This document shows, piece after piece, positions 599 through 38,535 of a stretch of DNA of 41,943 nucleotides. Source of the DNA: an uncultured Candidatus Peribacteria bacterium (GTDB taxonomy: Bacteria > Patescibacteriota > Gracilibacteria > Peribacterales > Peribacteraceae); assembly GCA_964548055.1 (NCBI GenBank), contig CAZJPS010000002.1, positions 1 to 41,943 on the forward strand, in the 5' to 3' direction. How positions within the stretch are numbered: the first letter of the stretch is position 1; each line of letters begins with the position of its first letter. Made by a program: the position numbers and the translations under genes. The notes under the pieces are model-generated. The model saw only the letters and a list, made by a program, of their open reading frames with translations. It was not told where the DNA came from and searched no databases.

Positions 599-606
599 AG
601 GAATCT

Positions 607-1422
607 TTATTGAAAGAACCACTGCCATCCTTTTTGAGGTGGCGTGACCATCGTCACTGGCCTGCCCTCGATAGATTCAATTTTTTCGTCTTTTTCAACA
701 ATTCCCAGAACAGACGGCAGCAGCATGTAGGTGATGCCATGAGAGCGGCAGACTCCTAGCAAGTTAATCGACTGCTCGATATCGCTGCACTGGATCATGT
801 GCGTGATCTTTTTTTCTTGTAGCACATCTTCCAATTTATTCAGTTTCCCAAGCACAGGCACTCCTTCTATCTCCGTTTCTTTCGCACCTCTGCCGTCCAG
901 TATTGCTACAGGACAGAGAGGACTTTTGCGTTTTTCCATCAGCGCAATTAATTTTTTTGATTCACGTGTGATTCCCACAATGAGTGTAGGGAAAGCAGGG
1001 GGAGAGCTGCGTAGGTTTCTGCGTTGAAACTGATCAAAAATGCAGTGCCAGAGCCACGTGAAGGCAGTGGTAAACACGAGTGCAAAAATAATCAGCATGC
1101 GGCTGAATATTCCTTGGAAGAGGAAAAAGTAACAAAGGGCCACAAATGCCACTCCTACCACGGATGAATAGATGATGTAGGCGAGGTTGCGTGGATCTGC
1201 TTGATTCCTGGTGAGTGCAAACGCTCTGGTAGTGATGAGCACGCACAGCCAGGGGATTGCACTTAATGCCACGGAGATCATGAACTTCTGCAAGGGGAGA
1301 TCAGATGAAAGGATCCATCCCACCCGCAAAAAATAGGCCAGTACAAAAGAGGCGATAAACAGAACAATATCGGACATCAGCCAGAGGATAAGGAGAGAAG
1401 TGCGGCGCATGGATGACATCAT
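607..1422 (-). CDS. N-terminal (TM + CoA-binding-like) module of a polyprenyl-phosphate glycosyl-1-phosphate transferase; the catalytic domain is absent
   Basis: The 271-aa ORF starts with several hydrophobic helices. It continues with TLIVGITRESKKLIALM..PVAILDG..IEGVPVLGKLNKLEDVL..ITHMIQ..GITYMLLP, which fits the WcaJ/WbaP-type N-terminal region. The ORF ends (..MVTPPQKGWQWFFQ*) where the Bac_transf catalytic domain would start. Confidence 0.5.
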   Translation of the reverse strand: MMSSMRRTSLLILWLMSDIVLFIASFVLAYFLRVGWILSSDLPLQKFMISVALSAIPWLCVLITTRAFALTRNQADPRNLAYIIYSSVVGVAFVALCYFFLFQGIFSRMLIIFALVFTTAFTWLWHCIFDQFQRRNLRSSPPAFPTLIVGITRESKKLIALMEKRKSPLCPVAILDGRGAKETEIEGVPVLGKLNKLEDVLQEKKITHMIQCSDIEQSINLLGVCRSHGITYMLLPSVLGIVEKDEKIESIEGRPVTMVTPPQKGWQWFFQ

Positions 1423-5804: not shown

Positions 5805-5832
5805 GGGAATAACGGCCGGAAGAGGGGATATC

Positions 5833-6678
5833 CTATACTCCGGGGAAATAGTTTTCCACCCACTCCAACTTCTTCTGCAGCACCTCACTCTTCTCCGCTT
5901 TCTTTTCGAATCCTGCTTTATCAGTCATATACATACTGACGCTCTCCGCTAAATCTTCAAACGGATCTGTTTTTGCATAGGCAGTGACAAAGTCTTCAGA
6001 TTTTGCGTCAGATTTTTTGGTGGAACTGTTTTGCCACGAAAGGGAATAGAAACTCACGCTCGGATCATTATTCCAAAGGGGAGTGTTGCCATCCTTGAAG
6101 GCGCTGGCACCACTTGTAGAAGTTCCTTTCAAGCACGAAATATCCCAAAAGTGGCCAAGGCCTTCATGGCTTAAGAGTTCTTTAAATTCGGCATCGGATA
6201 GTGTGCCATTCATAATAATCACACCATCACCCGCAAGTCCGCGATGTTTGGGCTGATCGTACAGAACATAGTACTGGCGAAGTTTTTGTTGGCAGGAAGG
6301 CGGAAGAATACTCAGTACTTCACGTGTCATTGCTCGATGCTTTGGAAGAATATCTCCTTTTTCAATCGCTGAGAGCGGATCGATGGGAATAACTGGAATA
6401 GCTGCAAGATAAGGACCCTTGTGAGAGGAATCAGAAGAAACAGAAGAAATAGATGATTCAGAGGAAAAGTCATACGAATTGTTCATGAGCTGATGCACAT
6501 CATTCTTCCGATTCCTCTGAGTCGTCTGAATCCTCTGATTCTTTTCAATATTCCCATTATGGGCCACCACCTCAGTCCCACTTGCCATATTCACACCTTG
6601 TGATAGGCTCGGCTCTAGCCCAAGCAGAATTCCACAGGTTCCGAGAGTGACAATGGTAAGAAATTTTTTCAGGTTCAT
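5833..6678 (-). CDS. secreted protein with metallopeptidase-like HExxxH and EDLAE motifs
   Basis: The 281-aa ORF has a signal peptide (MNLKKFLTIVTLGTCGILLG) and a Ser-rich linker. It carries LLSHEGLGHFWD and a C-terminal FVTAYAKTDPFEDLAESV, which resemble putative zinc-binding metallopeptidases. It lies 28 nt upstream of the helicase on the same strand. Confidence 0.45.
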   Translation of the reverse strand: MNLKKFLTIVTLGTCGILLGLEPSLSQGVNMASGTEVVAHNGNIEKNQRIQTTQRNRKNDVHQLMNNSYDFSSESSISSVSSDSSHKGPYLAAIPVIPIDPLSAIEKGDILPKHRAMTREVLSILPPSCQQKLRQYYVLYDQPKHRGLAGDGVIIMNGTLSDAEFKELLSHEGLGHFWDISCLKGTSTSGASAFKDGNTPLWNNDPSVSFYSLSWQNSSTKKSDAKSEDFVTAYAKTDPFEDLAESVSMYMTDKAGFEKKAEKSEVLQKKLEWVENYFPGV

Positions 6679-6720
6679 TATCTCGTGAAAAAGGTAGATT
6701 TATACTATATTTCATATTAA

Positions 6721-8178
6721 ATGTCAACTATTATCGACACTGGTTCAGTAGAGCCCGGGCAAATGCACACGGTATCCATAGAAAAGCTTACATTTGGCGG
6801 TTCTGGTTTAGCGCATATCGGAACACTTCCAGTATTTGTGTCAGATAGCATTCCGGGTCAGAGCGTTGAAATTGTGATACTAAAAAGAAAGGACAATTAT
6901 GCAGAGGCCCGAGTGCACAAAGTGCTCCGAAAAGCTAAAGATGAAGTAATGGCTCGTTGCCCCCACTTTCATACATGTGGTGGGTGTGTGTGGCAGAATC
7001 TGCCGTACGATAAACAGATGTCGTACAAAGAAGATATTGTACGCGAAACGCTTGGCCACCTAACGCCAGTGGATGATGCGGTACGTGCATCACTTCCAGG
7101 ACGCGTACTGAAGATCATTCCAAGCCCTCAGATATTCCACTACCGGAATAAATTAGAACTTTCGTTTGGATATGAATCCATGCGTGAAGAAGAAAAAGCG
7201 GGTAAGCGTATTTATTTTGATGAAAATCCAACGGTAGGATTTCATCAGCCTGGTCAATGGTCCACCGTGTTGCCGATTAGTGAATGTCACTTATACGAAG
7301 AACAACTCCCTATGCTCCTAAGCCAGGTCCGACGCTTTATGGAGGAAACAAAGCTTCCAGTGTTTAATCCTAAAACGCAAAAAGGAATGCTCCGGAGTTT
7401 GCTGCTGCGCAGAGGGGTACATACAGGCGAACAGATGATTTGCTTCCTTGTGCATGCGAGGAAAAAAGAATTAGAGCCGCTTTTTCAGCTGTTTCTGCGC
7501 TATTTTGGCGGCCGTCCTAATTTGTCTTCGCTGCTGATTGTGGAACATTTGGGATTGAACGATAAACCTGACTTTCCCAAAATTCACTCGTTGCTTGGTA
7601 AGCAAACCGTGAGTGAGCGATTGTTCGATCTCACCTTTGAAATTTCTCCTTTCTCCTTTTTCCAAACAAATACACTTGCAGCGGAAAAGCTGTACCGCGC
7701 TATAGCAGATGCGGCGGATTTAGGATTACGCGATACGGTTCTGGATGCGTATTGCGGCATGGGAACGATTGGTCAATATCTTGCGCGCTTCTGCCAAAAA
7801 GTGGTGGGTATAGAAAGCCATCCCTCTGCTGTGGAGGATGCTCTGAAGAGCGCAGGCCGTAACAAAATTGGAAATATTAGTTTTTATAAGGGCAGAACAG
7901 AGCAGGTACTGTTACAGCAGTTAAAACCAGGGGGAAAGTATGCTTTTGATGTGATTGTGGTAGATCCGCCACGCGCAGGATTGCACCCCAAAGCCCGCGA
8001 AGCAATGTTGGCGCACAAACCAAAGAAGATTGTGTATGTGTCCTGCAACACCGCCACCTTCGCCCGCGATTTGGGTGATTTCCTTAAAGGAGGCTATGAC
8101 CTGCGCACCGTTCAGCCTGTGGATCTCTTCCCTCACACAGCACATATAGAGACAGTTGCACTTTTACAGAGGAAGTAA
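6721..8178 (+). CDS. rlmD: 23S rRNA (uracil-C5)-methyltransferase, RumA/RlmD family (TRAM + Fe-S + SAM MTase)
   Basis: It has an N-terminal TRAM-like region and a Cys cluster (CPHFHTCGGCVWQNLPY). It also carries FFQTN, VLDAYCGMGTIG, VVDPPRAGL and YVSCNTATFARD. Confidence 0.85.
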   Translation: MSTIIDTGSVEPGQMHTVSIEKLTFGGSGLAHIGTLPVFVSDSIPGQSVEIVILKRKDNYAEARVHKVLRKAKDEVMARCPHFHTCGGCVWQNLPYDKQMSYKEDIVRETLGHLTPVDDAVRASLPGRVLKIIPSPQIFHYRNKLELSFGYESMREEEKAGKRIYFDENPTVGFHQPGQWSTVLPISECHLYEEQLPMLLSQVRRFMEETKLPVFNPKTQKGMLRSLLLRRGVHTGEQMICFLVHARKKELEPLFQLFLRYFGGRPNLSSLLIVEHLGLNDKPDFPKIHSLLGKQTVSERLFDLTFEISPFSFFQTNTLAAEKLYRAIADAADLGLRDTVLDAYCGMGTIGQYLARFCQKVVGIESHPSAVEDALKSAGRNKIGNISFYKGRTEQVLLQQLKPGGKYAFDVIVVDPPRAGLHPKAREAMLAHKPKKIVYVSCNTATFARDLGDFLKGGYDLRTVQPVDLFPHTAHIETVALLQRK

Positions 8179-9733: not shown

Positions 9734-10315
9734 ATGCAAACAACTCGCATGGAAGCCTTTAGCGATGGCGTGATTGCCATTCTTATTACGATCATGGTTT
9801 TGGAGCTCAAAGTACCGGAAGGCACAGATTTTGAGGCAATTCGTCCTCTTATGATGTCGTTCCTTACCTACGTGCTTAGTTTTATCTACTTGGGCATTTA
9901 TTGGAATAATCATCACCACTTGTTGCACGCTACCGACCATGTAGACGGAAGAATTTTGTGGGCGAATTTGCATCTGCTTTTCTGGCTTTCACTCATCACA
10001 TTCGCTACCGGTTGGATGGCCGAAAATCATCTGGCTCCAGTGGCAACTGCCGTATACGGTGCTGTGCTTTTGATGTGCGCTCTGGCCTATACGATTTTGC
10101 AGATTGCGATCATTAAACACGGTGGGCCAAATGCGCGGTTACGTGAGGCGATTGGAAAAGATATCAAAGGGAAAGTATCACTGGTGCTGTATGTTCTCTC
10201 TGTCCCCCTCGCATTTGCGAATCCATGGATATCGGTGGGTATATTTGTATTTGTGGCGTGTATGTGGCTTATTCCGGATCGCAGAATAGAATTGAGCCTT
10301 GAGCATACGCATTAG
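9734..10315 (+). CDS. TMEM175-family (DUF1211) potassium channel
   Basis: It carries the RMEAFSDGVIAILITIMVLEL signature (RxxxFSD on TM1) and has six predicted TM segments. Confidence 0.8.
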   Translation: MQTTRMEAFSDGVIAILITIMVLELKVPEGTDFEAIRPLMMSFLTYVLSFIYLGIYWNNHHHLLHATDHVDGRILWANLHLLFWLSLITFATGWMAENHLAPVATAVYGAVLLMCALAYTILQIAIIKHGGPNARLREAIGKDIKGKVSLVLYVLSVPLAFANPWISVGIFVFVACMWLIPDRRIELSLEHTH

Positions 10316-21407: not shown

Positions 21408-22493
21408 TTAGTGAAGGGGTGATTGGTAACACTTTTCATCGCCCCATGCGGCTTCATTCGGCGTTCTGTAGCTGAGGGCCATATGCGGGCGATCATCGTT
21501 GTAATCGACCATCCACTGGATAAGAGCACCATTCAACATTTCCATATCGGTGCAATCCTTCCATGGTGGAAGGAATTCCTCTCGCAGCGTGCGATTGAAT
21601 CGTTCTAGCTGAGAATTGTCCTTCGGTGTCCTGACGCGACTCCAGTAGTGACCGAGCTTCAGCTCCAACACGGCCTTCTGAAAATGCCGGTGGAACTCAG
21701 TGCCATTGTCCGTCTGCACGTTCCGCATGGTTCCTCGCATATTTCGATTCAAAAGGTGTAGGAATTCGGCCGCGTTTTTCGAGCTGTGGGTTTTGTAGAC
21801 ACGCGCAAAGCCCCAGCGAGAATGCCGGTCGAGTGCCGTGAACATCGAAAACGTTGCTTTTCCCTGCCTGAGTATCACCGTATCGATGCTGACGAGAAAA
21901 CCAGTCTTTGGCTCCTTGATGAGTTTCGTGATGCGTTGCTTCTTCTCCGCGTACTGACGTTTGTACGCTAGCCGCCGGGCACGTTTCACATCCGGATAGA
22001 GCTGGTAGCGTTCAATGATCTTCTGTACCTGCCAGGAAGAAATCTTCGTACCATACTGTCTTTCATAGATGGCAGCAATCTTCATCTTCGAGTAGAGCGG
22101 ATATGCTGATCGCAAGAAGAAAAGACGTTGGCTTTGTTCCGGATCAAGCACAGGGAGTGGACCGACTTTTGGACGATGGGAACCGTTTTCCAGCGATTGA
22201 GGCTTCGTCACATCGAACCGTTTCTTCCAGACGTAAAATGTCTTCCGCGAAATGCCGAAATAGCGGCACGTCTTTTTGGTATTCCCCTTGAACGTTGTGT
22301 TGTAGGCGACGAACCAATCCAGACGCTGCCGTGCTTCTCGCGTGAGTGGAACTCTCAGCGATCCTGCCAGGAGAATCGTCCATATCTGTTTTGCTTTTTC
22401 GGGATTCCGTCGCGCATTTCCCCACAGGGCTTGCTGCAGTTGCATACGCTCAGCGTCGGTGAGATTCTTCGGAGAATGTTCTTGGACTGTCAT
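21408..22493 (-). CDS. IS481-family (rve integrase-core) transposase
   Basis: I prefer the start at ATG 22493 (MTVQEHSPK). The N-terminal HTH is TCRYFGISRKTFYVWKKRF. The DDE core is SIDTVIL, VQTDNGTEF and NSQLERFNRTLREEF, and it ends DYNDDRPHMALSYRTPNEA. Confidence 0.85.
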   Translation of the reverse strand: MTVQEHSPKNLTDAERMQLQQALWGNARRNPEKAKQIWTILLAGSLRVPLTREARQRLDWFVAYNTTFKGNTKKTCRYFGISRKTFYVWKKRFDVTKPQSLENGSHRPKVGPLPVLDPEQSQRLFFLRSAYPLYSKMKIAAIYERQYGTKISSWQVQKIIERYQLYPDVKRARRLAYKRQYAEKKQRITKLIKEPKTGFLVSIDTVILRQGKATFSMFTALDRHSRWGFARVYKTHSSKNAAEFLHLLNRNMRGTMRNVQTDNGTEFHRHFQKAVLELKLGHYWSRVRTPKDNSQLERFNRTLREEFLPPWKDCTDMEMLNGALIQWMVDYNDDRPHMALSYRTPNEAAWGDEKCYQSPLH

Positions 22494-22510
22494 GGGAGGC
22501 GATACAAATT

Positions 22511-22750
22511 CTAATCCTGTTCCAGCATCTTCCGAAGAAGGATTGCCAGTGCCTCGACCGCATCGCTCGGAACGTCGGCTTCCGCTAGGGCTCCCATGCC
22601 GGGCACGCGTGCTTGAAAAACTCCCGTCCCTTCGGTTGAGAAATCCACTGGCATTACCATGTAGCACTTTCCTGCATAAGCGTCGAAGAGCGGCATAGGA
22701 ACACCATCTTCCTGTAAGATTTGCCGCTGCTCATCGGTGACGAAGATCAC
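22511..22750 (-). CDS. small hypothetical protein (weak HicB/UPF0150-like resemblance); possibly the 3' part of a TAG-interrupted gene
   Basis: The 79-aa ORF starts with GTG. The segment GVFQARVPGMGALAEADVPSDAVEALAILLRKMLEQ is HicB-like. It is in frame with ORF 22760-22963 across a single TAG at 22760-22762. Confidence 0.3.
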   Translation of the reverse strand: MIFVTDEQRQILQEDGVPMPLFDAYAGKCYMVMPVDFSTEGTGVFQARVPGMGALAEADVPSDAVEALAILLRKMLEQD

Positions 22751-22925
22751 CGGCGCAGTCTACACCGTGCCCGTGTGTGGAATAATTTTCTGATAGACAA
22801 TGTGATCGATCCACGCAAAAACCACGCGGCGCTCCGAACCGTTTACTGCGCCATCTGCGCTCGGTATAATGAGAGGGCAACCCGACAGCCCGGGAGGCGT
22901 GTTTTCCCTAGGGAGTCCTGAAACC

Positions 22926-24707
22926 ATGGCCGAGGCTGGGCAGTTCCACCCCAAGGTCTTCATCAGCTACAGCCACAGGGATGAACGGTGGAAGGACCGC
23001 CTCCTCATCCACATGAGGGTATTGCAGCGAGAGGCTGCGTTCGACATCTGGGATGACCGCCGTTTACGGGCTGGAGACCACTGGTACGAAGAAATCCAGT
23101 CTGCGTTGCGGACCGCAAACCTGGCGATCCTTCTCATCTCGGCCAACTCTCTGACGTCCGATTTCATCCTCCGAGAGGAAGTCCGTTCCTTGCTCCAGCG
23201 GCACGAGCGGGAGGGCCTGCGCATCATTCCGATCGTCCTTGAGCCCTGTGCTTGGCAGAAAGTTGGTTGGCTGAGTAAGATGCAACTCCTCCCCAAGGAT
23301 GGCCGACCTCTCTCGCAGGCCCGCCGCCGCCACGAGATCGAGGCGGAGCTGACTGCAATTGCAACCCTCGTCTTCGATCTCCTGCGCGAGGCTACGTTCG
23401 CATCGGTCCAGCCCTCGCGCCCAGCCCCCATGCCCTCTACCGATACCAGTCCGTCACCGGCAGCCGCCTACAATGACCTCCTTGCGCTGGCCGCGACACA
23501 GCAGCAGTGTGGGCAGTACAGCGGCGCCCAACGAGCGTTCGAAAAGGCCATCAGCATCCTGGGACAGCTCGTCGAACGATCGCCTGCGGTGTCCGCCTAC
23601 CGTTCAAGTTTGGCGGTGGCCTGCAACAACTTTGGCAATCTCCTTCGACGCCTCGGCCGTTTGTCCGATGCGAAGGACTACTACCACAGAGCCTTGGACT
23701 TGGAGGAGCGCCTCCACGAGGAAGAGCCCGATAGTCCTGACTACCTCAATGACACGGCGCGCACCCACCACAACTTGGGCACGGCCCTGTGGGATGAGAA
23801 ACACCTCGGCCCAGCAGCCGCTGCCTTTCGCAGATCCGTGGAGATCCGTGCGTGGTTGGTTGCCAACACGGCAGGCCATCCACGTCACTGCCTTTTCCGC
23901 CGAGAGCTGGGAGATAGTTACACTTTTCTCGGCAAGATACTGTGGCAAATGAACAATGTCTGTGATGCGGAAGCTGCTTTCCGCCACGCGCTTCACTGGT
24001 TGGAGCCGCTCGTCATGGCACACCCTGCGCCCATCGAAGCTCGCATGGAGCTGGGATTGGCCTACGCGGGCTTGGCGAGACTGCTCGCCGAATGCCAGGC
24101 AGACCGGCGACAGGAAGCGGAAGCTCTGTATGCAAAAGCTCTGACCTGCCAGCACGGCCTTGTTGATGAGTTGCCTACCGTCCCCGATCACCGACATCAC
24201 CTTGCGTTCACGTTGGGCGGCCTTGCCCGTTTGTTACAGAAGCAGGAGCAACGGGCGCAAGCCCTGGACTACATTCGACAAGCCATCGACCATGGCTTGC
24301 AAGTGTTGGAATCCGTGAGCCCACAGCCGCGGCAGTGGCACGGGGATTGTACCCGCGACTATCGGTACCTCCTGGCAGTGCTGCTGGAGATGGGCAACTT
24401 TGATGAGGCGGCAACGGCAGCGACGGAAATCCCTTCCGCCCTTCGCACGGATCCGTCGGATTGCATCAGGTGGGCAGCATTTCTCGCTCCTTGTGTCAAA
24501 GAATGGGTGAAGCCAGGTACGCTCAACCTGGAACGCAACACGCGCTGCTTCGAGAACCTCGCAATGGAACAACTGCGTGAGGCTGTCGATAAGGGGCATG
24601 GTGATCCGGAACAACTGTTAACAGACAAACGTTTTGAGGCGATGCGGTCCCGCGCAGACTTCCATGAATTGATTACCAGATTGCGCAACAATTCGGCCCA
24701 GGAATGA
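22926..24707 (+). CDS. TIR domain protein with a long C-terminal TPR array
   Basis: I prefer the start at ATG 22926 (MAEAGQFHPKVFISYSHRDERWKD). The TIR_2-like pattern is FISYSH...DIWDD...G..W..EI..AL..A.LAILLISANSLTSDFILREEV...IIPIVLEPC. Two candidate catalytic Glu residues lie at 23175-23180. Multiple TPR-like helical pairs follow a Pro/Ser linker. There is no P-loop. Confidence 0.8.
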   Translation: MAEAGQFHPKVFISYSHRDERWKDRLLIHMRVLQREAAFDIWDDRRLRAGDHWYEEIQSALRTANLAILLISANSLTSDFILREEVRSLLQRHEREGLRIIPIVLEPCAWQKVGWLSKMQLLPKDGRPLSQARRRHEIEAELTAIATLVFDLLREATFASVQPSRPAPMPSTDTSPSPAAAYNDLLALAATQQQCGQYSGAQRAFEKAISILGQLVERSPAVSAYRSSLAVACNNFGNLLRRLGRLSDAKDYYHRALDLEERLHEEEPDSPDYLNDTARTHHNLGTALWDEKHLGPAAAAFRRSVEIRAWLVANTAGHPRHCLFRRELGDSYTFLGKILWQMNNVCDAEAAFRHALHWLEPLVMAHPAPIEARMELGLAYAGLARLLAECQADRRQEAEALYAKALTCQHGLVDELPTVPDHRHHLAFTLGGLARLLQKQEQRAQALDYIRQAIDHGLQVLESVSPQPRQWHGDCTRDYRYLLAVLLEMGNFDEAATAATEIPSALRTDPSDCIRWAAFLAPCVKEWVKPGTLNLERNTRCFENLAMEQLREAVDKGHGDPEQLLTDKRFEAMRSRADFHELITRLRNNSAQE

Positions 24708-25436: not shown

Positions 25437-25579
25437 CTCTGCAATAAGGAAAGGGATTGAAAGGAATGGGAAGTCCTTCTCACGGCAGCTTTTTGATCGT
25501 TATCCCTTCAATCCCTTTATTCCCTTGAATCCTTTTGCCCCTTACCAATCCTTATATTTGCGCTTATACTCCAGTAAAG

Positions 25580-26488
25580 ATGATTGAGTTCCAGCGTCTC
25601 ATTCTCGGTGATCAAGTGCGCAACAAGGTTTTTGAAGATGCCTTAAAGAGGGTCATCCGGCCTGGCGAAAGTATTGTGGCCGATATAGGTTCGGGCACTG
25701 GATATCTTTCTTTCCTAGCCTCCAAGATGGGAGCCAAGGAATGCCACCTGTATGAGTTTTCTGAACTCCTTCCGCTCAGTAAAGAGATCGCAAAAAAGAA
25801 TGGGATCAAGAACCTGCACTTTCATCATGCACATTCCATGAGCGTGAAGAACCCTGTGAAAGCAGATATTGTGATATCCGAAACACTTGGAAATTATGCG
25901 CTAGAAGAGAATATGTTGGAGACACTGAGCGACGCTAAGCGGTATCTAAAAGAAGGTGGCGTGATGATCCCCCAGACTCTTACTCAATATGTAGTTCCCG
26001 TGACAAGTGATCGCCTCCATAAGGAAATCAATGTGTGGGACACGCTCGGACACGGTCTTGATTTTTCCCCTGCCAAGGAAATCTGTTTCCATAACATGTA
26101 TGTGAAAACTCTCCGTCCCGATGAGCTTTTGCAAAATGGAATTCAGGAATGGGACAGTATTGATTTCCGCAAAGGCGGTTCGAGCATTCGTCAGGCTGAT
26201 GTTGTTTGGTCTATGCAGAATCCACAGAAAATCTATGGATTTGTGCTCTTCTGGCATTGCGAATTGCTACCAGGGATCACTCTCTCTACTACTCCACTTC
26301 ACCCACCCACACACTGGCAGCAGATCTATTTACCACTCATAGAGCCGCTATCCCTGCAATCAAACGACACTCTCAAGCTCCATCTGCATTCCGATTCTAG
26401 GTTGAAAGTGAAAATAAGGCTGAAATGGAAAGCGGAGGGAGGAGGGGAGAGTTCAATAGAGATGGATACGCACAAGGGACTCGTGTAA
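25580..26488 (+). CDS. protein arginine N-methyltransferase (PRMT)-like SAM methyltransferase
   Basis: Motif I is VADIGSGTGYL and post-I is HLYEFS. ADIVISETLGNYALEENML matches the double-E loop, and LKEGGVMIPQ is motif III. PPTHWQQIYLPL matches the THW loop in a C-terminal beta-barrel-sized domain. I prefer the start at ATG 25580. Confidence 0.7.
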   Translation: MIEFQRLILGDQVRNKVFEDALKRVIRPGESIVADIGSGTGYLSFLASKMGAKECHLYEFSELLPLSKEIAKKNGIKNLHFHHAHSMSVKNPVKADIVISETLGNYALEENMLETLSDAKRYLKEGGVMIPQTLTQYVVPVTSDRLHKEINVWDTLGHGLDFSPAKEICFHNMYVKTLRPDELLQNGIQEWDSIDFRKGGSSIRQADVVWSMQNPQKIYGFVLFWHCELLPGITLSTTPLHPPTHWQQIYLPLIEPLSLQSNDTLKLHLHSDSRLKVKIRLKWKAEGGGESSIEMDTHKGLV

Positions 26489-33878: not shown

Positions 33879-34106
33879 ATATGTGTGTTGGTATGAATGA
33901 AATTCATCCCATTATAGCCGAAAAACGGAATTCTAACAATAGGGGCAGATTTCGTGGTTTCTTGTCGAAATTGAGATGTGATGTATCAATAAAACTTACT
34001 ATGTATATCTGTCAAATACACAATCTTTCTCTCTGTCACACATCCCTTTTTCGCTCGTCGTATAGCAAGAAGGTGTATGCTTCTTTTACTTCATTCCCAC
34101 CCCTCT

Positions 34107-34463
34107 ATGAATGTTCAGCACTTCGAGAAAGGGATTGCCTATACGGATCAGGATTTGATTGTTCTGGCGCGGAAAATTGGAAAATTGGCCACCTTTTGCA
34201 AGCACGTGAAGAACGAAGCGTCGCTCATTCGAGTTGAGTCCGAGCAGCGCAAAACCAAAAAGGCGCAAGATCAGGTGAAAGTGATGCTCACTGTGGATCT
34301 TCCAAAAAAACAATTCAGAGCAGAATCTCGACGGCCGATTGTGATGGATGCCCTAGATCGTTGCATAGAAAAGCTGACGCCCCAAATTCAGAAGTATAAG
34401 GAGCTCCACACAGGTCGAGGGAAAGCACGCCTTGGCGCTCGCCGTTCCCGGACGGAAGCATGA
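34107..34463 (+). CDS. hpf: ribosome hibernation/translation inhibition factor, short RaiA/HPF form
   Basis: MNVQHFEKGIAYTDQDLIVLARKIGKL...VKVMLTVDLPKKQFRAESRRPIVMDALDRCIEKLTPQIQKYKE fits the S30AE fold pattern. Its TGA overlaps the next ATG in an ATGA at 34460-34463. Confidence 0.75.
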   Translation: MNVQHFEKGIAYTDQDLIVLARKIGKLATFCKHVKNEASLIRVESEQRKTKKAQDQVKVMLTVDLPKKQFRAESRRPIVMDALDRCIEKLTPQIQKYKELHTGRGKARLGARRSRTEA

Positions 34464-36049
34464 GAAGAACAGGCGATGCCCGCAGGCTCTTAAGCATGAT
34501 GAAAAGAGGAAACTGCAGTGTGCGAAGAATCTTTTCTTGTATAGGAACAGCCGCGTTTGTCGGTATTCTCTGGCTCCTTCCAGTTCATGCGCAGGAGCAA
34601 CTTCACAGCCAAAGTGCTGGCGTGACAGCAGTGATTGTAGGACCAGCCGATACCCCTGTTGGACGCACCATTATTTTAAGTGCTTCTGCCAGCCAAGTTG
34701 CAGGAAATAATGTGCAATATTTTTGGTACGTGAATTCAGAAAAAGAACCCATCAGCACATCGGTAGATGTGATCTATACACCGGAAAGAGCAGGGGACGT
34801 GGAATTCCATCTTGTGATTCGAAGCCTTTTAAATGGCCAACGATTGGAAGATGACGAATATCACACGGTCACTGCGTTTAGCAGAAAAGTGGTATTGATT
34901 ACCGATACGCATTTATCGGATGCACACATACAAAATCTGCAAAATGCAGCTGCATCTGGTTCTACGTATTTGCGCGTACTTCGTTCCCATATTTCTTCGC
35001 AAACCCGCGGAGGGGAAACCGCACTGGGAGCCCTCCTTTCCGAAGAAGTGGAAGCGTTTAGTGATGCAGAAAGCATAGTGTTCTGGACAGACGATCTTCC
35101 TCCGGTCGGATTACAGGCGTTACTGAATATTGTGAAAGGAAATCGAAAACGTTTGCTTGATGTGCGTGATCAGACATTCTTACTCATTACAGATCTTCAT
35201 CTGCGGACGGTGGCACGCACTGCTATCGGCCCCGGAAATGAGTTGCATCCAAAAAAATTGATGGTGGCCAAATCCGAGCTCATACCGATGCTCTTGCAAT
35301 CAAAGAATGACGAAGAATTTTTGAATGCAGCATTTCAAGCTCGTGCGGAGGAGCCGCTCATTATGGATGTATTCGCTGTCCACATTCCGCTTTGGCAGCT
35401 TGTGTCTCGGCTCCTTATAACCATGCTCGCGCTTGGTGTTTCCAGCCAAACCATCCTGCTTCTGCTCGTTCTTCCTATTATTGCCACCATTCTTTCATTT
35501 TTGAAACAGGTGGTTGGTATGACCACTTTTGGGCTTTTTACACCTTCTATTATCGCGCTTAGCTTTTTAGTTCTTGGGTGGCCAGTGGGCGTTCTCTTCT
35601 TGCTTTTCATTCTCATGACGGGGTACGCAACTCGCGCTCTCATGCGAAGGCTGCATATTCTGTATATACCAAAGATGGCCATCATCCTTGGTGTAGGAAG
35701 CCTGACCATATTGTTTCTCGTAGGTATTGGCACCTTCTTTGGAGTATTTCTTAGCTACGATACGGTCTTTGTACTTCTGATTATGAGCACGCTCGTAGAA
35801 AGCTTCTTAAATGTGAAATCAGAAGAAGGCCTGCGCTCTGCAGTATTTGGTATAAGCCAAACAATTATTGCCGCGCTTTTATGCGTGTTTATCGTGCAGT
35901 GGCCTTCATTCCGCGCTCTCATTATCGCCTATCCAGAAATTATTCTTTTCACTCCTATCATCAATATTTTGCTGGGGAGATGGACGGGATTGCGCGTGTC
36001 AGAATATTTCCGCTTCAGGGAAGTGTTCCGCCATCTTGCGCAGGAATAA
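34460..36049 (+). CDS. signal peptide + Ig/PKD-like + alpha/beta ectodomain + C-terminal 7TM module (7TM_transglut-like)
   Basis: The 529-aa ORF may instead start at 34496 or 34499 (MMKRGNCSVRRIFSCIGTAAFVGILWLLPVHAQ). The C-terminal half is polytopic and contains LKQVVGMTTFGLFTPSIIALSFLVLGW. That segment resembles the 7TM partner of RimK-like ATP-grasp enzymes. Confidence 0.6.
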   Translation: MRRTGDARRLLSMMKRGNCSVRRIFSCIGTAAFVGILWLLPVHAQEQLHSQSAGVTAVIVGPADTPVGRTIILSASASQVAGNNVQYFWYVNSEKEPISTSVDVIYTPERAGDVEFHLVIRSLLNGQRLEDDEYHTVTAFSRKVVLITDTHLSDAHIQNLQNAAASGSTYLRVLRSHISSQTRGGETALGALLSEEVEAFSDAESIVFWTDDLPPVGLQALLNIVKGNRKRLLDVRDQTFLLITDLHLRTVARTAIGPGNELHPKKLMVAKSELIPMLLQSKNDEEFLNAAFQARAEEPLIMDVFAVHIPLWQLVSRLLITMLALGVSSQTILLLLVLPIIATILSFLKQVVGMTTFGLFTPSIIALSFLVLGWPVGVLFLLFILMTGYATRALMRRLHILYIPKMAIILGVGSLTILFLVGIGTFFGVFLSYDTVFVLLIMSTLVESFLNVKSEEGLRSAVFGISQTIIAALLCVFIVQWPSFRALIIAYPEIILFTPIINILLGRWTGLRVSEYFRFREVFRHLAQE

Positions 36050-36141: not shown

Positions 36142-38535
36142 TTGGTTTTCCCTTTTTTCCGCCACGGAATTCTTGGCCTCAATGCTCGTAATTTGTTGTA
36201 TTTGAGGCCATATAACCCCAAAAAGGCTGTCGCATTTGCAGATAACAAACTGAAAACAAAAGCATACTTATCTGCGCGTGGAATCCCCACTGCAAAGATA
36301 TATGCAAGAATAGAAACGCGTGGGCAATTGCGAAGCTTTGATTTTTCTACTCTTCCAGAAGAATGTGTACTCAAGCCTAATTATGGATTTGGAGGAGAGG
36401 GAATTCTTATTTTAAAGGGGCGAAAAAATGGGATGTTTTTGGAGCAGGGGAAAGTACCCATTCCAGACAGTAGATTACGCGAACACATCGAAGATATTTT
36501 AGACGGAAAATTTTCGGTGAATGGAAAGATGGACACGGCATTCTTTGAAAAAATTCTTGTGTCACATGAGGGGTTTGCGCCCTTTAGACCTGCAGGACTT
36601 CCTGATGTACGCATTGTGGTATTCAACCTTGTTCCCGTAATGGCAATGCTCCGTGTTCCCACAGCGCAAAGCAGGGGAAAGGCGAATGTGCATATGGGAG
36701 GATTAGGCATTGGAATCGATATTGCAAAGGGGGTTACTACGCATGCATTCCAATACTCTTCGCTTCTTACAGAGCTTCCCCATCATGGAGGAAATCCCGC
36801 AGGCATTCCCATTCCTTTTTGGCAGGAAATGCTGCTCATTTCCTCACGTATTCAGTACATGACAAATATCGGGTACCTAGCAGTAGATTTAACGTTGGAT
36901 AGGGACCAGGGACCGGTACTTTTGGAGGTGAATGCACGTGCGGGCCTTATGGTGCAGGTAGCCAATTTAGCTCCGCTCCGCTCGCGTTTGGAGCGTGTAG
37001 AGGGACTGAGTGTTAGTTCTCCAGAAAAAGGTGTGCGTATTGCACAAGATTTGTTTGGAGAAAAAGTGGAAAAATCTGCAGAAGTACAAACGAATAGACC
37101 ACGCTTAGGCGTGCGAGAAAATATATTTGTACATTCAAAAGGGATGAATATGGAAGTGCCAAGCATCATTAATCCTGCGGCATCGGAATACACTATTTTT
37201 ACGCCCGATTTACTTCAGGAATTGCAGGCGCAAGGAGGCGCAGAGCTTTCCGAAGAGTCGGAAGATATTGATCGTCAATTCTACCGAGTTAAATTTACAT
37301 TGGGTGGTAAAAAAATTCAGACGCATGTGTATGCTGGGAGCGTACCCTACCCCTCTGCTCGTGCACTTATCGGGCGCAGAGACCTCGCAGGTTTTTATAT
37401 AGATCCAGCAAAAGAACCCGAAGTACCCATTACTATTACTCGGATGCGTATCGATACACGCGCAACCGATAGAATTCTTTTGCAGATGGATGAAGAATTG
37501 ATGCTACTCAAGCATCTGAAGCCCATCAATCTTCCCGGAGAGCGCATTCAGTTAGAACGCGATCGCAATTATAGCCCTCATTTTTTGTATGCCCCTCTTC
37601 CCGAAGCTATTGATGATATTGAGCGCAAGCTCCGTACCTTACCCACAGACGATTCGTCATTAGGGATTCTTCTAAATAAAAAGCGCAGAGAACTTTTGAT
37701 GCGTATTGCTCTTTTCCGCGCACGTGGGAACAGTGAGCGGTTTACACAGGCATCACAAGCCCTCTTTGGTGCGCCCCATGCAGATTTACTAGCATCGGCG
37801 TTCCATGTTCTTGCTTCTCGTACCAGCTGCGATCTTCCTCTGCCAAAAAATCAAATGCTTACATCGGATCAGGCAGCAGCGCGCTTTGATGAAATGCTTT
37901 CCCAGTATGGGCTTCACGATTGGCAGGTGAGTGTACGCGAAGCATTGGTGTCGGATTGTGCGGTTGGGTGGAAGCGCCTCTATGTTCGCAAAGGAGCAAT
38001 ATTTTCTCCTACACATGTGGAATCACTCATGGCGCACGAAATAGAAACGCATATTCTCACAGCCGAGAATGGAGCGCAGCAGCCGTTTGATATTTTCCGC
38101 CGCGGTTTTGCAAATTATTTAGATACGCAAGAAGGATTGGCATCGTATAATCAGAATAGAGTACTTCCAAAAAACCACGATAAACGGTTTGGTCCAGCAC
38201 GCAGTGTTGTAGCAATTGCCTATGCCCTTGAACATTCTTTTGTGGATACACGTAAATATCTGGAAGCAGAGTTAGGATACACATCTGAGAAATCACTCAC
38301 CAAAGCAATTGAACTCAAGCGCGGCCTTTTTGATACTTCAGAGCCTGGCTGTTTTACAAAAGGACTGGTGTATTATCGCGGGCTTAGAGCAATCGAGCAC
38401 TTTGAAGAGAGCGGAGGAGATTTGAAGCGTTTGTACATAGGCAAAATTGCACTAGAGGATTTAGACTGTGCAGAGCAGGTAGAAGGAGTAAAACCACCAC
38501 TGCTTATTCCAGCATTTCTTAGAAAAAAGAAGTAA
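36142..38535 (+). CDS. fusion protein of alpha-L-glutamate-ligase-like ATP-grasp + degenerate retropepsin-like domain + DUF1704/QEGLA HExxxH metallopeptidase-like domain
   Basis: The start is TTG at 36142. The N-terminus VFPFFRHGILGLNARNLLYLRPYNPKKAVAFADNKLKTKAYL...VLKPNYGFGGEGILIL matches the ATP-grasp family I recall as TIGR02291. The middle region LGVRENIFVHS..IINPAASEY...ALIGRRDLAGFYIDP is retropepsin/Zn_protease-like. The C-terminal region carries HEIETH (38035-38052) and QEGLA (38128-38142). Confidence 0.75.
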   Translation: MVFPFFRHGILGLNARNLLYLRPYNPKKAVAFADNKLKTKAYLSARGIPTAKIYARIETRGQLRSFDFSTLPEECVLKPNYGFGGEGILILKGRKNGMFLEQGKVPIPDSRLREHIEDILDGKFSVNGKMDTAFFEKILVSHEGFAPFRPAGLPDVRIVVFNLVPVMAMLRVPTAQSRGKANVHMGGLGIGIDIAKGVTTHAFQYSSLLTELPHHGGNPAGIPIPFWQEMLLISSRIQYMTNIGYLAVDLTLDRDQGPVLLEVNARAGLMVQVANLAPLRSRLERVEGLSVSSPEKGVRIAQDLFGEKVEKSAEVQTNRPRLGVRENIFVHSKGMNMEVPSIINPAASEYTIFTPDLLQELQAQGGAELSEESEDIDRQFYRVKFTLGGKKIQTHVYAGSVPYPSARALIGRRDLAGFYIDPAKEPEVPITITRMRIDTRATDRILLQMDEELMLLKHLKPINLPGERIQLERDRNYSPHFLYAPLPEAIDDIERKLRTLPTDDSSLGILLNKKRRELLMRIALFRARGNSERFTQASQALFGAPHADLLASAFHVLASRTSCDLPLPKNQMLTSDQAAARFDEMLSQYGLHDWQVSVREALVSDCAVGWKRLYVRKGAIFSPTHVESLMAHEIETHILTAENGAQQPFDIFRRGFANYLDTQEGLASYNQNRVLPKNHDKRFGPARSVVAIAYALEHSFVDTRKYLEAELGYTSEKSLTKAIELKRGLFDTSEPGCFTKGLVYYRGLRAIEHFEESGGDLKRLYIGKIALEDLDCAEQVEGVKPPLLIPAFLRKKK

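What the first reader, a model, noticed from the sequence alone, without database searches (positions are those of the whole stretch)
36142..38535. Rosetta-stone fusion of a ligase (ATP-grasp) with a MATCAP-like HExxxH/QEGLA peptidase: a possible writer-eraser pair in one polypeptide
The N-terminus (GILGLNARN..YNP....ADNKLKTK...VLKPNYGFGGEGILIL) is the alpha-L-glutamate-ligase-like ATP-grasp. The C-terminal ~330 aa carry HEIETH (38035-38052) and the invariant QEGLA (38128-38142) of the DUF1704 family. As I recall, these two families normally occur as a conserved adjacent gene pair. DUF1704 is also the fold of eukaryotic MATCAP, the tubulin detyrosinating carboxypeptidase, whose opposing enzyme TTL is an ATP-grasp ligase. 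A covalent fusion argues that both act on the same substrate, with cycles of C-terminal amino-acid addition and removal. I am not aware of any characterised bacterial example.
Basis: partly seen in the sequence, partly recalled or inferred. Interest (0 to 1): 0.75.

Follow-up and report, generated by a model that had tools for sequence, protein, structure and literature searches.

The report
Ligase, dead protease, MATCAP peptidase fusion
One gene of an uncultured 'candidate phyla radiation' bacterium joins an enzyme that adds amino acids to a chain end, a dead relic of one trimming protease and a live trimming enzyme related to human MATCAP, which suggests an add-and-trim system that has never been tested.

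Summary
ORF 36142-38535 (+) encodes a 797-aa protein with an N-terminal ATPgrasp_ST / RimK-related ligase (E=6.5e-56) and a C-terminal MATCAP/DUF1704 peptidase (E=4.4e-44). HEIETH and QEGLA lie exactly where stated. It is not an assembly artefact: all 120 best database hits are fused, and 68 of the 150 best representatives of 50%-identity clusters carry both catalytic motifs in order, down to about 25% identity. Both catalytic sites stay invariant.

Two things were missed. First, the 'linker' (residues about 315-436) is a retropepsin domain of the RimB/RloA family (hhalign 98.6%; best PDB fold match RloA), and its catalytic DTGA has decayed to NPAA. Related two-domain ligase-retropepsin proteins keep D[TS]G in 98 of 99 cases; MATCAP-bearing ones keep it in 5 of 212. 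Second, an RloB-like 7TM membrane gene always lies directly upstream.

I read this as a Rim/Rlo-type add-and-trim system in which a MATCAP-type metallopeptidase replaced the aspartic peptidase in the same polypeptide. The substrate is unknown. The ligase resembles RimK, LysX, ArgX and cyanophycin synthetase more than TTL. No activity has been tested. It is a new variant of a known kind, of moderate to high interest.

The parts
34460..36049 (+). Partner gene for a 529-aa membrane protein. It has a signal anchor, an ectodomain of about 260 aa, and a C-terminal 7TM_transglut (RloB-like) module that ends in a short tail ...FRFREVFRHLAQE.
   Evidence: Pfam PF14402 at residues 320-522, E=1.6e-21. 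There is a weak match to NCBIfam RloB NF052267 (39 bits, far below the 900-bit cutoff). Orthologs at 43-61% identity lie directly upstream of the fusion gene in L001-L004 and L012. A 7TM_transglut gene lies directly upstream in the Dojkabacteria, Microgenomates and other loci examined; the 231-aa upstream ORF of L010 has no Pfam call but matches the window's 7TM protein by tblastn at 1.2e-08.
36017..36046 (+). C-terminal tail of the 7TM protein (REVFRHLAQE). The terminal Glu is clade-conserved. It is a candidate acceptor tail, and this is speculative.
   Evidence: Of 104 homologs, mostly Peribacteria/Peregrinibacteria, 100 end in Glu (QEE in 67, EEE in 17), although tail length varies. The feature is not general. 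Distant lineages end in ...LKR...PNH...TKK...KRN and ...RRR.
36142..38535 (+). The three-domain fusion gene (797 aa, TTG start): ligase, then pseudo-retropepsin, then MATCAP-type peptidase.
   Evidence: The N-terminus MVFPFF matches the family consensus MFPFF. There is no strongly hydrophobic segment (highest 19-residue Kyte-Doolittle mean 1.59), so I infer it is cytoplasmic.
36160..37065 (+). ATP-grasp amidoligase domain (residues 7-308), RloC/RimK-related.
   Evidence: PF14397 E=6.5e-56 and TIGR02291 E=4e-70. Fold matches are ArgX 3vpb, RimK 4iwx/5zct/7qys and LysX 3vpd. The canonical ATP-grasp residues listed in PMC4431377 are K36/K40, K78, R157/R171, D249 and E262-x-N264; all are invariant across 20 fused proteins at 25-43% identity.
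36925..36933 (+). E262-V-N264, the Mg/ATP-binding ExN motif of the ligase.
   Evidence: It is invariant in A1 and A2 and aligns with the VEVNAAPG segment of cyanophycin synthetase.
37084..37449 (+). Degenerate retropepsin-like domain (residues about 315-436) of the RimB/RloA (PF05618/DUF785) family.
   Evidence: hhalign of this region's family alignment against the PF05618 domains of two-domain CPR proteins gives probability 98.6%, E=1.1e-15 over 117 columns. The AF2 model of the domain has pLDDT 88.3. Its best PDB fold matches are RloA 9g58, Lpg0085 2pma and RloA2 9g59, followed by DDI1 and retroviral proteases. The active counterpart domains hit RloA2 and RloA by sequence at 5.5e-10 and 1.7e-9. 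The window region alone has no Pfam hit and no PDB sequence hit.
37171..37182 (+). N344-P-A-A347, the position of the retropepsin catalytic D-T-G-A. The Asp is lost.
   Evidence: Alignment column analysis: 98 of 99 two-domain proteins have D[TS]G here, against 5 of 212 MATCAP-bearing proteins. The window has NPAA.
37483..38529 (+). MATCAP/DUF1704-type gluzincin peptidase domain (residues 448-796).
   Evidence: PF08014 E=4.4e-44 and TIGR02421 E=7.1e-47. The family profile against MATCAP 7z5g gives E=1.4e-34. Foldseek against 7z5g gives E=1.9e-11, with TM 0.64-0.67 normalised to the target. pLDDT is mostly above 90.
38035..38052 (+). HEIETH zinc-binding and catalytic motif (H632, E633, H637).
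   Evidence: It is invariant in all alignments and aligns with MATCAP HEIGTH. E281 of MATCAP is the residue mutated in catalytically dead MATCAP: 7z6s carries HQIGTH, and E281A is described in PMC10499314.
38128..38142 (+). QEGLA motif (Q663-A667). E664 is invariant and is the presumed third metal ligand.
   Evidence: E664 is invariant and A667 is at least 90% conserved across fused proteins at 25-43% identity. Q663 varies, and most members have EEGLA. The motif aligns with MATCAP TEEGLAS.

Best explanation
The gene encodes a cytoplasmic three-domain enzyme that belongs, together with the 7TM gene upstream, to the Rim/Rlo class of 'add-and-trim' systems.

Shown:
(a) The N-terminal domain is an ATP-grasp amidoligase of the RloC/RimK-related ATPgrasp_ST family with every canonical catalytic residue intact.
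(b) The middle domain is a retropepsin fold homologous to the RimB/RloA poly-Glu peptidases, but it has lost the catalytic Asp-Thr-Gly.
(c) The C-terminal domain is a MATCAP/DUF1704 metallopeptidase with HExxxH and the downstream Glu intact.
(d) The gene is always preceded by an RloB-like 7TM membrane protein gene.
(e) Sister proteins that lack the MATCAP domain keep an active-looking retropepsin.

Inferred:
The ligase uses ATP to add amino acids, most likely L-Glu in alpha linkage as in RimK, to a free carboxyl end of a peptide, protein tail or growing poly-amino-acid chain. The MATCAP-type domain removes residues from that same C-terminus. It has therefore taken over the eraser role that the retropepsin plays in RimK/RimB, in RloC/RloA and in the two-domain CPR proteins.

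The dead retropepsin probably survives as a structural or dimerisation module, because retropepsins are obligate dimers. The enzyme probably works at the inner face of the membrane with the 7TM partner. That partner could be an anchor or regulator, an exporter of the product or, in the Peribacteria clade, the acceptor itself through its conserved cytoplasmic -EE tail.
For: Domain identities.

Conservation of both active sites: K78, D249, E262, N264, H632, E633, H637 and E664 are invariant among 20 fused proteins sharing only 25-43% identity and among 34 closer ones.

The fusion is widespread. All 120 best hits are fused, and 68 of the 150 best diverse representatives are fused. Named members come from Peregrinibacteria/Peribacteria and Dojkabacteria. 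Members with W at 18-23 of 35 conserved Gly columns indicate lineages that read UGA as Gly.

Peptidase replacement: D[TS]G is kept in 98 of 99 two-domain ATP-grasp-retropepsin proteins but in only 5 of 212 MATCAP-bearing ones. In Dojkabacteria the two forms occupy the same locus, rplL then 7TM then the enzyme gene, with mreB downstream.

Operon: the 7TM gene lies directly upstream in all 14 loci examined. No convincing terminator lies between the two genes.

Precedents. RimK adds C-terminal Glu to RpsF and RimB removes it. RloA cleaves poly-Glu, and deleting rloB or rloC suppresses the rloA1-3 defects (10.1101/2025.03.18.643919). MATCAP-family enzymes TMCP1 and TMCP2 remove C-terminal Tyr and also Glu and poly-Glu chains (PMC10499314). 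The closest ligase folds, ArgX, LysX and RimK, all act on a protein's C-terminal Glu.
Against: No biochemical data exist for any bacterial MATCAP/DUF1704 protein or for ATPgrasp_ST/RloC in the literature I could search. The substrate, the amino acid added and the type of linkage are all unknown.

Fusion shows functional coupling, not antagonism. The two activities could act one after the other in a maturation pathway.

The AF2 inter-domain geometry is uncertain (pTM 0.54), and parts of the ligase model are poorly predicted (residues 1-23 and 267-317, pLDDT below 50).

The window protein scores below NCBIfam's equivalog cutoffs for both TIGR02291 (236 against 314) and TIGR02421 (160 against 339), so it is not an ortholog of the proteobacterial proteins.

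The counts are not phylogenetically independent.

The -EE tail of the 7TM partner is clade-specific.
Confidence: 0.55

Rival explanations
1. Polymer synthesis and export. The ATP-grasp makes a free poly-amino-acid, such as poly-alpha-glutamate or a cyanophycin-like chain. The 7TM protein exports or anchors it. The peptidase domain sets chain length or removes cytoplasmic excess. No protein is being modified.
For: RimK also makes free poly-alpha-Glu, and the authors of the Rlo paper consider free poly-Glu a possible RloA substrate; suppression by rloB/rloC deletion fits a toxic exported product. In other CPR loci the same gene pair is followed by one to four further ATP-grasp genes. In L006 these resemble the cyanophycin synthetase G domain (E=1e-63 and 1.5e-57), and L007 adds a Mur-ligase-like gene. 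By sequence the window ligase's best PDB match is cyanophycin synthase.
Against: The window and its Peribacteria relatives have no extra ligase genes next to the pair. PF14402 has no demonstrated transport function. A cytoplasmic exopeptidase fused to the synthetase would oppose synthesis of a product meant for export.
Confidence: 0.25
2. A sequential maturation pathway rather than an antagonistic cycle. The MATCAP-type domain first trims a precursor to expose the correct C-terminus, and the ligase then adds a residue or closes an amide bond. The fusion channels an intermediate in one direction.
For: Fusion proves only coupling. Peptidase-plus-ATP-grasp pipelines exist in peptide natural-product biosynthesis, and graspetide ligases appear among the fold hits (7mgv, 7drm, 7m4s).
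Against: No precursor-peptide gene is conserved next to the pair in any locus. The relatives with known function (RimK/RimB, RloC/RloA, TTL(L)/MATCAP) are all antagonistic. The peptidase domain can be exchanged for a poly-Glu-cleaving retropepsin.
Confidence: 0.1
3. One reading: a bacterial counterpart of the tubulin TTL/MATCAP tyrosination-detyrosination cycle, adding and removing a single aromatic C-terminal residue.
For: The homology to MATCAP is solid. NCBI already names relatives 'tyrosine/phenylalanine carboxypeptidase domain-containing protein'. In Peribacteria the 7TM partner's tail ends in -QEE/-EEE. From my own knowledge, not from a tool, detyrosinated alpha-tubulin ends in -GEE.
Against: The ligase is not TTL-like. 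The window has no PF03133 hit, relatives give only weak hits (E 0.0002-0.015), and TTLL6 ranks 46th by fold, behind ArgX, RimK, LysX and Ddl. MATCAP-family enzymes also remove Glu, so homology does not fix specificity. CPR bacteria are not known to have tubulin.
Confidence: 0.07
4. Artefact: two adjacent genes merged by a sequencing or assembly frameshift, or a decaying pseudogene.
For: None found.
Against: The reading frame is continuous. The same architecture appears in hundreds of independent assemblies from NCBI, JGI, ENA and Logan across several lineages. Catalytic residues are invariant.
Confidence: 0.01

Closest known systems
RloABC of Pseudomonas aeruginosa (RloA secreted retropepsin, RloB 7TM 'inactive transglutaminase', RloC ATP-grasp)
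   Same: It has the same three building blocks: a PF14402 7TM membrane protein, an ATPgrasp_ST-type ligase and a PF05618 retropepsin domain. The 7TM gene is adjacent to the ligase gene. RloA is the best structural match of the window's middle domain.
   Different: Here the retropepsin is internal, has no signal peptide and has lost its catalytic DTG, so it cannot be the secreted active protease that RloA is. A MATCAP-type metallopeptidase is added, which Rlo lacks. The 7TM protein carries a different ectodomain (PKD hits in homologs) and scores only 39 bits against the RloB model, whose cutoff is 900. The lineage is CPR, not Gammaproteobacteria.
RimK/RimB (ribosomal protein S6 / RpsF glutamylation system)
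   Same: An ATP-grasp alpha-L-Glu ligase is paired with a cytoplasmic peptidase that removes the added C-terminal Glu residues, and the two bind each other. RimK is among the best fold matches of the ligase domain.
   Different: The window ligase is not a RimK-family member (TIGR00768 37 bits against a 143-bit cutoff). The active peptidase is a gluzincin, not an aspartic protease. The two are fused covalently. A membrane partner is present. There is no evidence that S6 is the substrate.
Eukaryotic MATCAP / TMCP1-TMCP2 (KIAA0895L, KIAA0895), opposed by the TTL/TTLL ATP-grasp ligases
   Same: The peptidase domain is homologous, with the same HExxxH...EEGLA active site and the same fold. The logic is also the same: an ATP-grasp adds residues and a MATCAP-type enzyme removes them from a C-terminal tail, and MATCAP-family enzymes remove Tyr and Glu.
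   Different: There is no tubulin and no microtubule-binding region. The ligase is RimK/LysX/CphA-like rather than TTL-like. The two activities are in one chain. Sequence identity is about 22%.
Proteobacterial TIGR02421 'flavohemoglobin expression-modulating QEGLA motif protein', with or without TIGR02291 'alpha-L-glutamate ligase-like protein'
   Same: These are the same two families as stand-alone proteins. Stand-alone representatives of about 320 aa and about 360-390 aa match query residues about 9-312 and about 438-795 respectively, which are the domain boundaries of the fusion. In Sinorhizobium an ATP-grasp gene lies next to the QEGLA gene.
   Different: The genes are separate, with no retropepsin relic. 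The window protein is below both equivalog cutoffs. The Sinorhizobium neighbour is a glutathione-synthetase-type ATP-grasp (PRK12458). The Pseudoalteromonas and Legionella QEGLA genes have no ligase neighbour.
Two-domain ATP-grasp-retropepsin proteins of Dojkabacteria and Microgenomates (e.g. P0297, P0365), which are uncharacterised
   Same: They align with query residues 8-425. They have the same 7TM gene upstream and, in Dojkabacteria, the same chromosomal position. The middle domains are homologous.
   Different: They end after the retropepsin, which keeps DTG in 98 of 99 cases. They are usually followed by extra ATP-grasp ligase genes.

Membership tests
MATCAP / DUF1704 (Pfam PF08014) | Sequence match above Pfam's gathering score over the catalytic domain | tested here: met
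   151.4 bits against a cutoff of 27, residues 474-780. The family profile against the MATCAP crystal sequence gives E=1.4e-34.
MATCAP / DUF1704 (Pfam PF08014) | HExxxH plus a downstream Glu in the (Q/E)EGLA motif | tested here: met
   H632, E633, H637 and E664 are invariant down to 25% identity and align with MATCAP HEIGTH and EEGLA.
MATCAP / DUF1704 (Pfam PF08014) | MATCAP fold | tested here: met
   Foldseek against 7z5g gives E=1.9e-11 and probability 1.00, with TM 0.64-0.67 normalised to the target. The domain pLDDT is mostly above 90.
MATCAP / DUF1704 (Pfam PF08014) | Metallocarboxypeptidase activity on a C-terminal tail | not testable with these tools
   This needs enzymology. It has been shown only for the eukaryotic members (PMC10499314).
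TIGR02421 QEGLA (NCBIfam hypothetical equivalog) | Score at or above the curated cutoff of 338.65 bits | tested here: not met
   160.4 bits. The window protein is a family-level homolog, not an equivalog. The Sinorhizobium protein passes with 357.9 bits.
ATPgrasp_ST (Pfam PF14397) | Match above the gathering score, with the canonical ATP-grasp residues (two Lys, Arg, Asp, ExN) | tested here: met
   190 bits against a cutoff of 31.4. K36/K40, K78, R157/R171, D249 and E262-x-N264 are invariant. The residue list comes from PMC4431377.
TIGR02291 rimK_rel_E_lig (NCBIfam hypothetical equivalog) | Score at or above the curated cutoff of 314.2 bits | tested here: not met
   236.3 bits, with full-length alignment 9-316 of 317 model positions.
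RimK family (TIGR00768) / S6-Glu ligase | Score at or above 143.4 bits; modification of S6 | tested here: not met
   37 bits, covering the N-terminal 78 residues only. The substrate was not tested.
TTL / TTLL (Pfam PF03133) | Pfam match or closest fold | tested here: not met
   The window protein has no PF03133 hit. Relatives give E=0.0002-0.015, below the cutoff. TTLL6 ranks 46th by fold.
RimB/RloA retropepsin-like peptidases (Pfam PF05618, DUF785) | Homology and retropepsin fold | tested here: met
   There is no direct Pfam hit. hhalign to PF05618-bearing domains gives 98.6%, E=1.1e-15. The AF2 model's best PDB matches are 9g58 RloA, 2pma and 9g59 RloA2.
RimB/RloA retropepsin-like peptidases (Pfam PF05618, DUF785) | Catalytic Asp-Thr/Ser-Gly and the Lys two residues upstream | tested here: not met
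   The window has I-I-N-P-A-A where active members have K-I-D-T-G-A. It is therefore a pseudo-enzyme domain, not a functional member.
RloABC system | Secreted active RloA protease, an RloB ortholog and an RloC ATP-grasp in one operon | tested here: not met
   The 7TM and the ligase are present and adjacent. However, the retropepsin is internal, inactive and lacks a signal peptide, and the RloB model scores 39 bits against a cutoff of 900. The locus is related to Rlo but is not an Rlo operon.
7TM_transglut (Pfam PF14402), upstream gene | 7TM module above the gathering score; usually an N-terminal inactive transglutaminase | tested here: inconclusive
   The 7TM module is met (77.4 bits against 25). 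No transglutaminase domain was detected. Homologs show PKD domains instead. The fold of the window's own ectodomain was not determined.
Known anti-phage defence systems (PADLOC) | Any PADLOC model hit | tested here: not met
   There are no hits for the fusion protein or for the 7TM protein.

The most novel reading that the evidence does not exclude
In the Peribacteria/Peregrinibacteria clade, the fused enzyme may reversibly lengthen and shorten the cytoplasmic C-terminal -EE tail of its own 7TM membrane partner. That would be a bacterial tail code on a membrane protein, written by a RimK-like ligase and erased by a MATCAP-type carboxypeptidase. It would mean the ligase/MATCAP antagonism of the eukaryotic tubulin code descends from a prokaryotic add-and-trim module. 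In that module a metallopeptidase displaced an aspartic peptidase within a single polypeptide and left a pseudo-protease behind.
Probability: 0.12. Interest if true: 0.85.

Novelty: new variant of a known kind. Interest (0 to 1): 0.62.

Why it matters
If the mechanism holds, three things follow.

1. It would give the first functional context for bacterial MATCAP/DUF1704 proteins. This is a large family with no tested bacterial member in the literature I could search. The context would be erasers of ATP-grasp-added C-terminal residues.

2. It would show that pairing an ATP-grasp ligase with a MATCAP-type peptidase predates, or arose independently of, the eukaryotic tubulin tyrosination and glutamylation cycle. 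That bears on where the tubulin-code enzymes came from.

3. The locus is a clear case of one peptidase class replacing another inside the same protein. The retropepsin active site decays only where the MATCAP domain is present.

It also ties the poorly understood Rlo system, which matters for osmotic tolerance, biofilm and antibiotic susceptibility in Pseudomonas, to a minimal two-gene version in reduced CPR genomes. That version could be an easier route to finding the still unknown Rlo substrate.

Tried and rejected
- **Assembly frameshift or pseudogene:** rejected. The ORF is continuous and hundreds of independent fused homologs exist.
- **Known defence system:** rejected. PADLOC gives no hits.
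- **TTL-like ligase:** not supported.
- **The 7TM partner's -EE tail as a general substrate signature:** tested and downgraded. It holds for 100 of 104 mostly Peribacteria orthologs. It fails in 5 of 8 more distant loci, including two whose enzyme has the MATCAP domain.
- **Retention of poly-Glu-binding residues in the dead retropepsin:** the Lys two residues before the catalytic Asp and the 'DRS' motif seen in active members are not kept. A tail-binding role is therefore not supported, and I favour a structural or dimerisation role without direct evidence.
- **Direct Pfam scan and PDB sequence search of the middle region:** both gave nothing. Only profile-profile and fold comparison revealed the domain.
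- **'Normally adjacent gene pair':** seen in Sinorhizobium only, out of three proteobacterial loci. The plasmid gene tables are incomplete, so this sample is weak.
- **Genome scan (GTDB representatives) with the single protein:** found only five close Peribacteria loci, so I could not make a taxonomic census.
- **The listing of cluster members:** returned no organism names for the distant fused representatives.
- **The paper that defined ATPgrasp_ST and 7TM_transglut (Iyer et al. 2009, PMC3268129):** not held. I could not check whether it already describes this fusion.
- **Promoter and terminator scans:** at or near background, so uninformative.

Full report
**1. The observation**

The window has an uninterrupted ORF at 36142-38535 on the + strand (TTG start, 797 aa). 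Pfam assigns residues 16-287 to ATPgrasp_ST (PF14397, E=6.5e-56) and residues 474-780 to MATCAP (PF08014, the former DUF1704, E=4.4e-44). Both are far above the gathering scores. NCBIfam gives the same picture with TIGR02291 'alpha-L-glutamate ligase-like' at residues 7-308 and TIGR02421 'QEGLA' at residues 448-796. In a direct PDB sequence search they align with HEIGTH and EEGLA of human MATCAP (7z5g/7z6s, E=2.8e-9).

**2. The fusion is real and widespread**

An identical protein is already in the public collection, and all 120 best hits (60-76% identity, 788-839 aa) carry both Pfam domains. Those with names come from Candidatus Peregrinibacteria/Peribacteria, as do the five loci found among GTDB representative genomes. 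The window is therefore from a Peribacteria-like CPR bacterium.

The exhaustive search of 50%-identity cluster representatives found 3310 relatives. Among the best 150, 68 have the ligase ExN motif followed more than 250 aa later by HExxxH. Many of these align end to end with the query at only 27-45% identity.

A profile of the distant members recovered the same architecture in Candidatus Dojkabacteria. Several distant members have Trp at 18-23 of 35 columns where the family has conserved Gly. That is the signature of genomes that read UGA as Gly but were translated with UGA as Trp, which I infer to be Gracilibacteria/Absconditabacteria-type lineages.

Across 20 fused proteins sharing 25-43% identity, the canonical ATP-grasp residues stay invariant: K36/K40, K78, R157/R171, D249 and E262-x-N264 (residue list from PMC4431377). 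So do the metallopeptidase residues H632, E633, H637 and E664. Both halves are therefore under selection as enzymes. An assembly artefact is excluded.

**3. What the parts are**

The AF2 model, built on a 34-sequence alignment, has mean pLDDT 82. The C-terminal domain is very confident, while parts of the ligase are poor (residues 1-23 and 267-317). Foldseek against the PDB puts MATCAP first (E=1.9e-11, TM 0.64-0.67 relative to the target). ArgX, RimK and LysX follow at about 1e-5 to 1e-4, and TTLL6 is only rank 46.

With the family profile, the MATCAP match rises to E=1.4e-34 and covers almost the whole crystallised domain. The ligase half matches cyanophycin synthetase (5.7e-5), Ddl and RimK. 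So the peptidase is a genuine MATCAP-family member. The ligase belongs with the enzymes that add amino acids to a carboxyl end (RimK, LysX/ArgX, CphA), not with TTL.

**4. The 'linker' is a dead retropepsin**

The profile search also returned about 100 proteins of roughly 430-490 aa that combine the same ATP-grasp with PF05618, the RimB/RloA retropepsin-like 'Zn_protease'. These proteins align with query residues 8-425, and the protease domain is C-terminal (P0297: residues 327-469).

The window's own middle region has no Pfam hit and no PDB sequence hit. However, a profile-profile comparison of this region in 23 Peribacteria proteins (A4) with the protease domains of 15 two-domain proteins (A5) gives probability 98.6%, E=1.1e-15 over 117 columns. 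A5 in turn hits RloA2, RloA and Lpg0085 by sequence (5.5e-10, 1.7e-9 and 1.5e-6). Folded alone, the window's middle domain has pLDDT 88. Its best PDB matches are RloA (9g58), Lpg0085/DUF785 (2pma) and RloA2 (9g59), followed by DDI1 and retroviral proteases.

The catalytic K-x-D-T-G-A of active members aligns with I-I-N-P-A-A in the window (nt 37171-37182 for NPAA). Over everything I hold, 98 of 99 two-domain proteins keep D[TS]G, against 5 of 212 MATCAP-bearing proteins. These counts are not phylogenetically independent, but about 90 of the 212 are representatives of 50%-identity clusters.

In Dojkabacteria, the MATCAP-bearing form (L006, L010) and the retropepsin-only form (L007, L014) occupy the same chromosomal slot, directly after rplL and the 7TM gene; mreB follows on the opposite strand in L006, L007 and L010. 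The simplest reading is this. A ligase-retropepsin fusion gained a MATCAP-type domain, and the retropepsin active site then decayed because the metallopeptidase took over its job.

**5. The partner gene**

Directly upstream (34460-36049, + strand) is a 529-aa protein whose C-terminal 200 residues are a 7TM_transglut module (PF14402, E=1.6e-21). It matches the RloB model weakly. Orthologs at 43-61% identity lie directly upstream of the fusion gene in the five related loci that include the upstream region, L001-L004 and L012. A 7TM gene lies directly upstream in all eight non-redundant distant loci as well; seven carry a PF14402 call, and the L010 ORF matches by tblastn only. No convincing terminator separates the two genes in the window. 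The N-terminal part is a signal anchor plus an ectodomain of about 260 aa. Homologs show PKD domains there rather than a transglutaminase.

**6. Comparison with what is known**

The components match the Pseudomonas Rlo system: RloA secreted retropepsin, RloB 7TM protein and RloC ATP-grasp. They also match the RimK/RimB pair. RimK adds Glu to the C-terminus of RpsF and makes poly-alpha-Glu, and RimB removes those residues. RloA cleaves runs of at least 8 Glu. Deleting rloB or rloC suppresses the defects of the triple rloA mutant (bioRxiv 10.1101/2025.03.18.643919).

On the eukaryotic side, the MATCAP-family enzymes TMCP1 and TMCP2 remove C-terminal Tyr and also Glu and poly-Glu chains (PMC10499314). 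Hence the best-supported mechanism is an add-and-trim system. The ATP-grasp extends a carboxyl terminus, most likely with Glu, and the MATCAP-type domain trims it in the cytoplasm, in association with the 7TM partner. The steps that are shown are the domain identities, intact or decayed active sites, gene linkage and the exchangeability of the two peptidase types. The chemistry, the substrate and the antagonism are inferred.

**7. A substrate lead, tested and weakened**

The window's 7TM protein ends in ...HLAQE. Among 104 homologs, 100 end in Glu (QEE in 67, EEE in 17), although tail length varies. The Glu-ended tail recalls the S6 C-terminus that RimK extends. By topology the tail should be cytoplasmic, given the ectodomain outside, the seven helices implied by the family name and the basic residues near the end (this is an inference).

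The sample is almost all one clade, though. In eight more distant loci the tails end in ...LKR...PNH...NTEE...SESD...TKK...EEG...KRN and ...RRR. Two of the non-acidic tails belong to partners of MATCAP-bearing enzymes. The tail is therefore at best a clade-specific acceptor. I keep it only as the 'novel case'.

**8. Rival models**

In other CPR loci the pair is followed by one to four further ATP-grasp genes. Some of these resemble the cyanophycin synthetase G domain (1e-63), and L007 adds a Mur-ligase-like gene. That favours a free poly-amino-acid product which the 7TM protein handles. The window and its close relatives lack these extra genes.

**9.

Stand-alone QEGLA proteins are common on rhizobial and marine gammaproteobacterial replicons (128 records). 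In Sinorhizobium the gene sits next to a glutathione-synthetase-type ATP-grasp and an N-formylglutamate amidohydrolase. In Pseudoalteromonas and Legionella there is no ligase neighbour. The claim is only partly supported by this small sample.

**10. Novelty and limits**

I found no paper on bacterial MATCAP/DUF1704 proteins or on this fusion in the searchable library. The 2009 paper that defined ATPgrasp_ST and 7TM_transglut is not held, so earlier in-silico predictions cannot be excluded. Databases already annotate the two domains, for example JGI's 'alpha-L-glutamate ligase-like protein/uncharacterized protein (TIGR02421 family)'.

As far as I can tell, three points are new here: the dead retropepsin, the link between its decay and the presence of MATCAP, and the invariable 7TM partner across CPR lineages. 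I rate this a new variant of a known kind (Rim/Rlo-type ligase-peptidase systems), with interest 0.62. It is conserved, mechanistically suggestive and relevant to the origin of the tubulin-code erasers, but it is entirely untested biochemically.

Noticed in passing
window 22869-24707 (+), with 21408-22667 (-): A 612-aa TIR + TPR protein (Pfam TIR_2 8.6e-16; PADLOC ThsB-like TIR 1.2e-24) lies in the only high-GC stretch of the window (GC 0.605 at 23001-24000, against about 0.46 elsewhere), next to an rve-type integrase. It is probably a horizontally acquired defence-type gene.
   Followed up: partly
window 34077-34463 (+): An HPF/YfiA-like ribosome hibernation factor gene (128 aa, weak hits) overlaps the 7TM gene start by 4 nt (ATGA). 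It is syntenic in L012. In four Dojkabacteria-type loci the 7TM/ligase pair instead follows rplJ-rplL. The locus is repeatedly near ribosome-related genes, for reasons unknown.
   Followed up: partly
window 25535-26488 (+): A 317-aa methyltransferase has hits to the PRMT_C and PRMT5_C oligomerisation subdomains. It is a protein-arginine-methyltransferase-like enzyme, which is unusual in bacteria.
   Followed up: no
window 34460-35400 (+), the N-terminal half of the 7TM protein: The ectodomain of about 260 aa has no Pfam hit in the window protein, while homologs show PKD domains. It replaces the 'inactive transglutaminase' that names the family. Dojkabacteria and Microgenomates partners lack any ectodomain (228-312 aa).
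   Followed up: partly
L006 7494-9437; L007 5960-9079; L015 4890-8362: In other CPR lineages the 7TM/ligase-peptidase pair is followed by one to four extra ATP-grasp genes. These resemble the cyanophycin synthetase G domain (1e-63) and, in L007, include a Mur-ligase-like gene. This suggests a larger peptide-building pathway that the window's lineage has lost or relocated.
   Followed up: partly
L016 (Sinorhizobium medicae pMl3) 1-7207: The rhizobial QEGLA protein is 627 aa, with an unassigned N-terminal region of about 245 aa. It is flanked by an N-formylglutamate amidohydrolase gene and a PRK12458 glutathione-synthetase-like ATP-grasp. Two group II intron reverse-transcriptase (ltrA) genes lie between the amidohydrolase gene and the QEGLA gene.
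   Followed up: no
window 1419-5888 (-) and 5833-6678 (-): A 1489-aa protein has only a central SNF2/ResIII helicase match. Its start overlaps the end of a 281-aa gene with a weak Peptidase_Mx1 hit. Most of the large protein is unassigned.
   Followed up: no
window 9734-10315 (+): A homolog of the TMEM175-type potassium channel family (PF06736, 2.8e-30).
   Followed up: no
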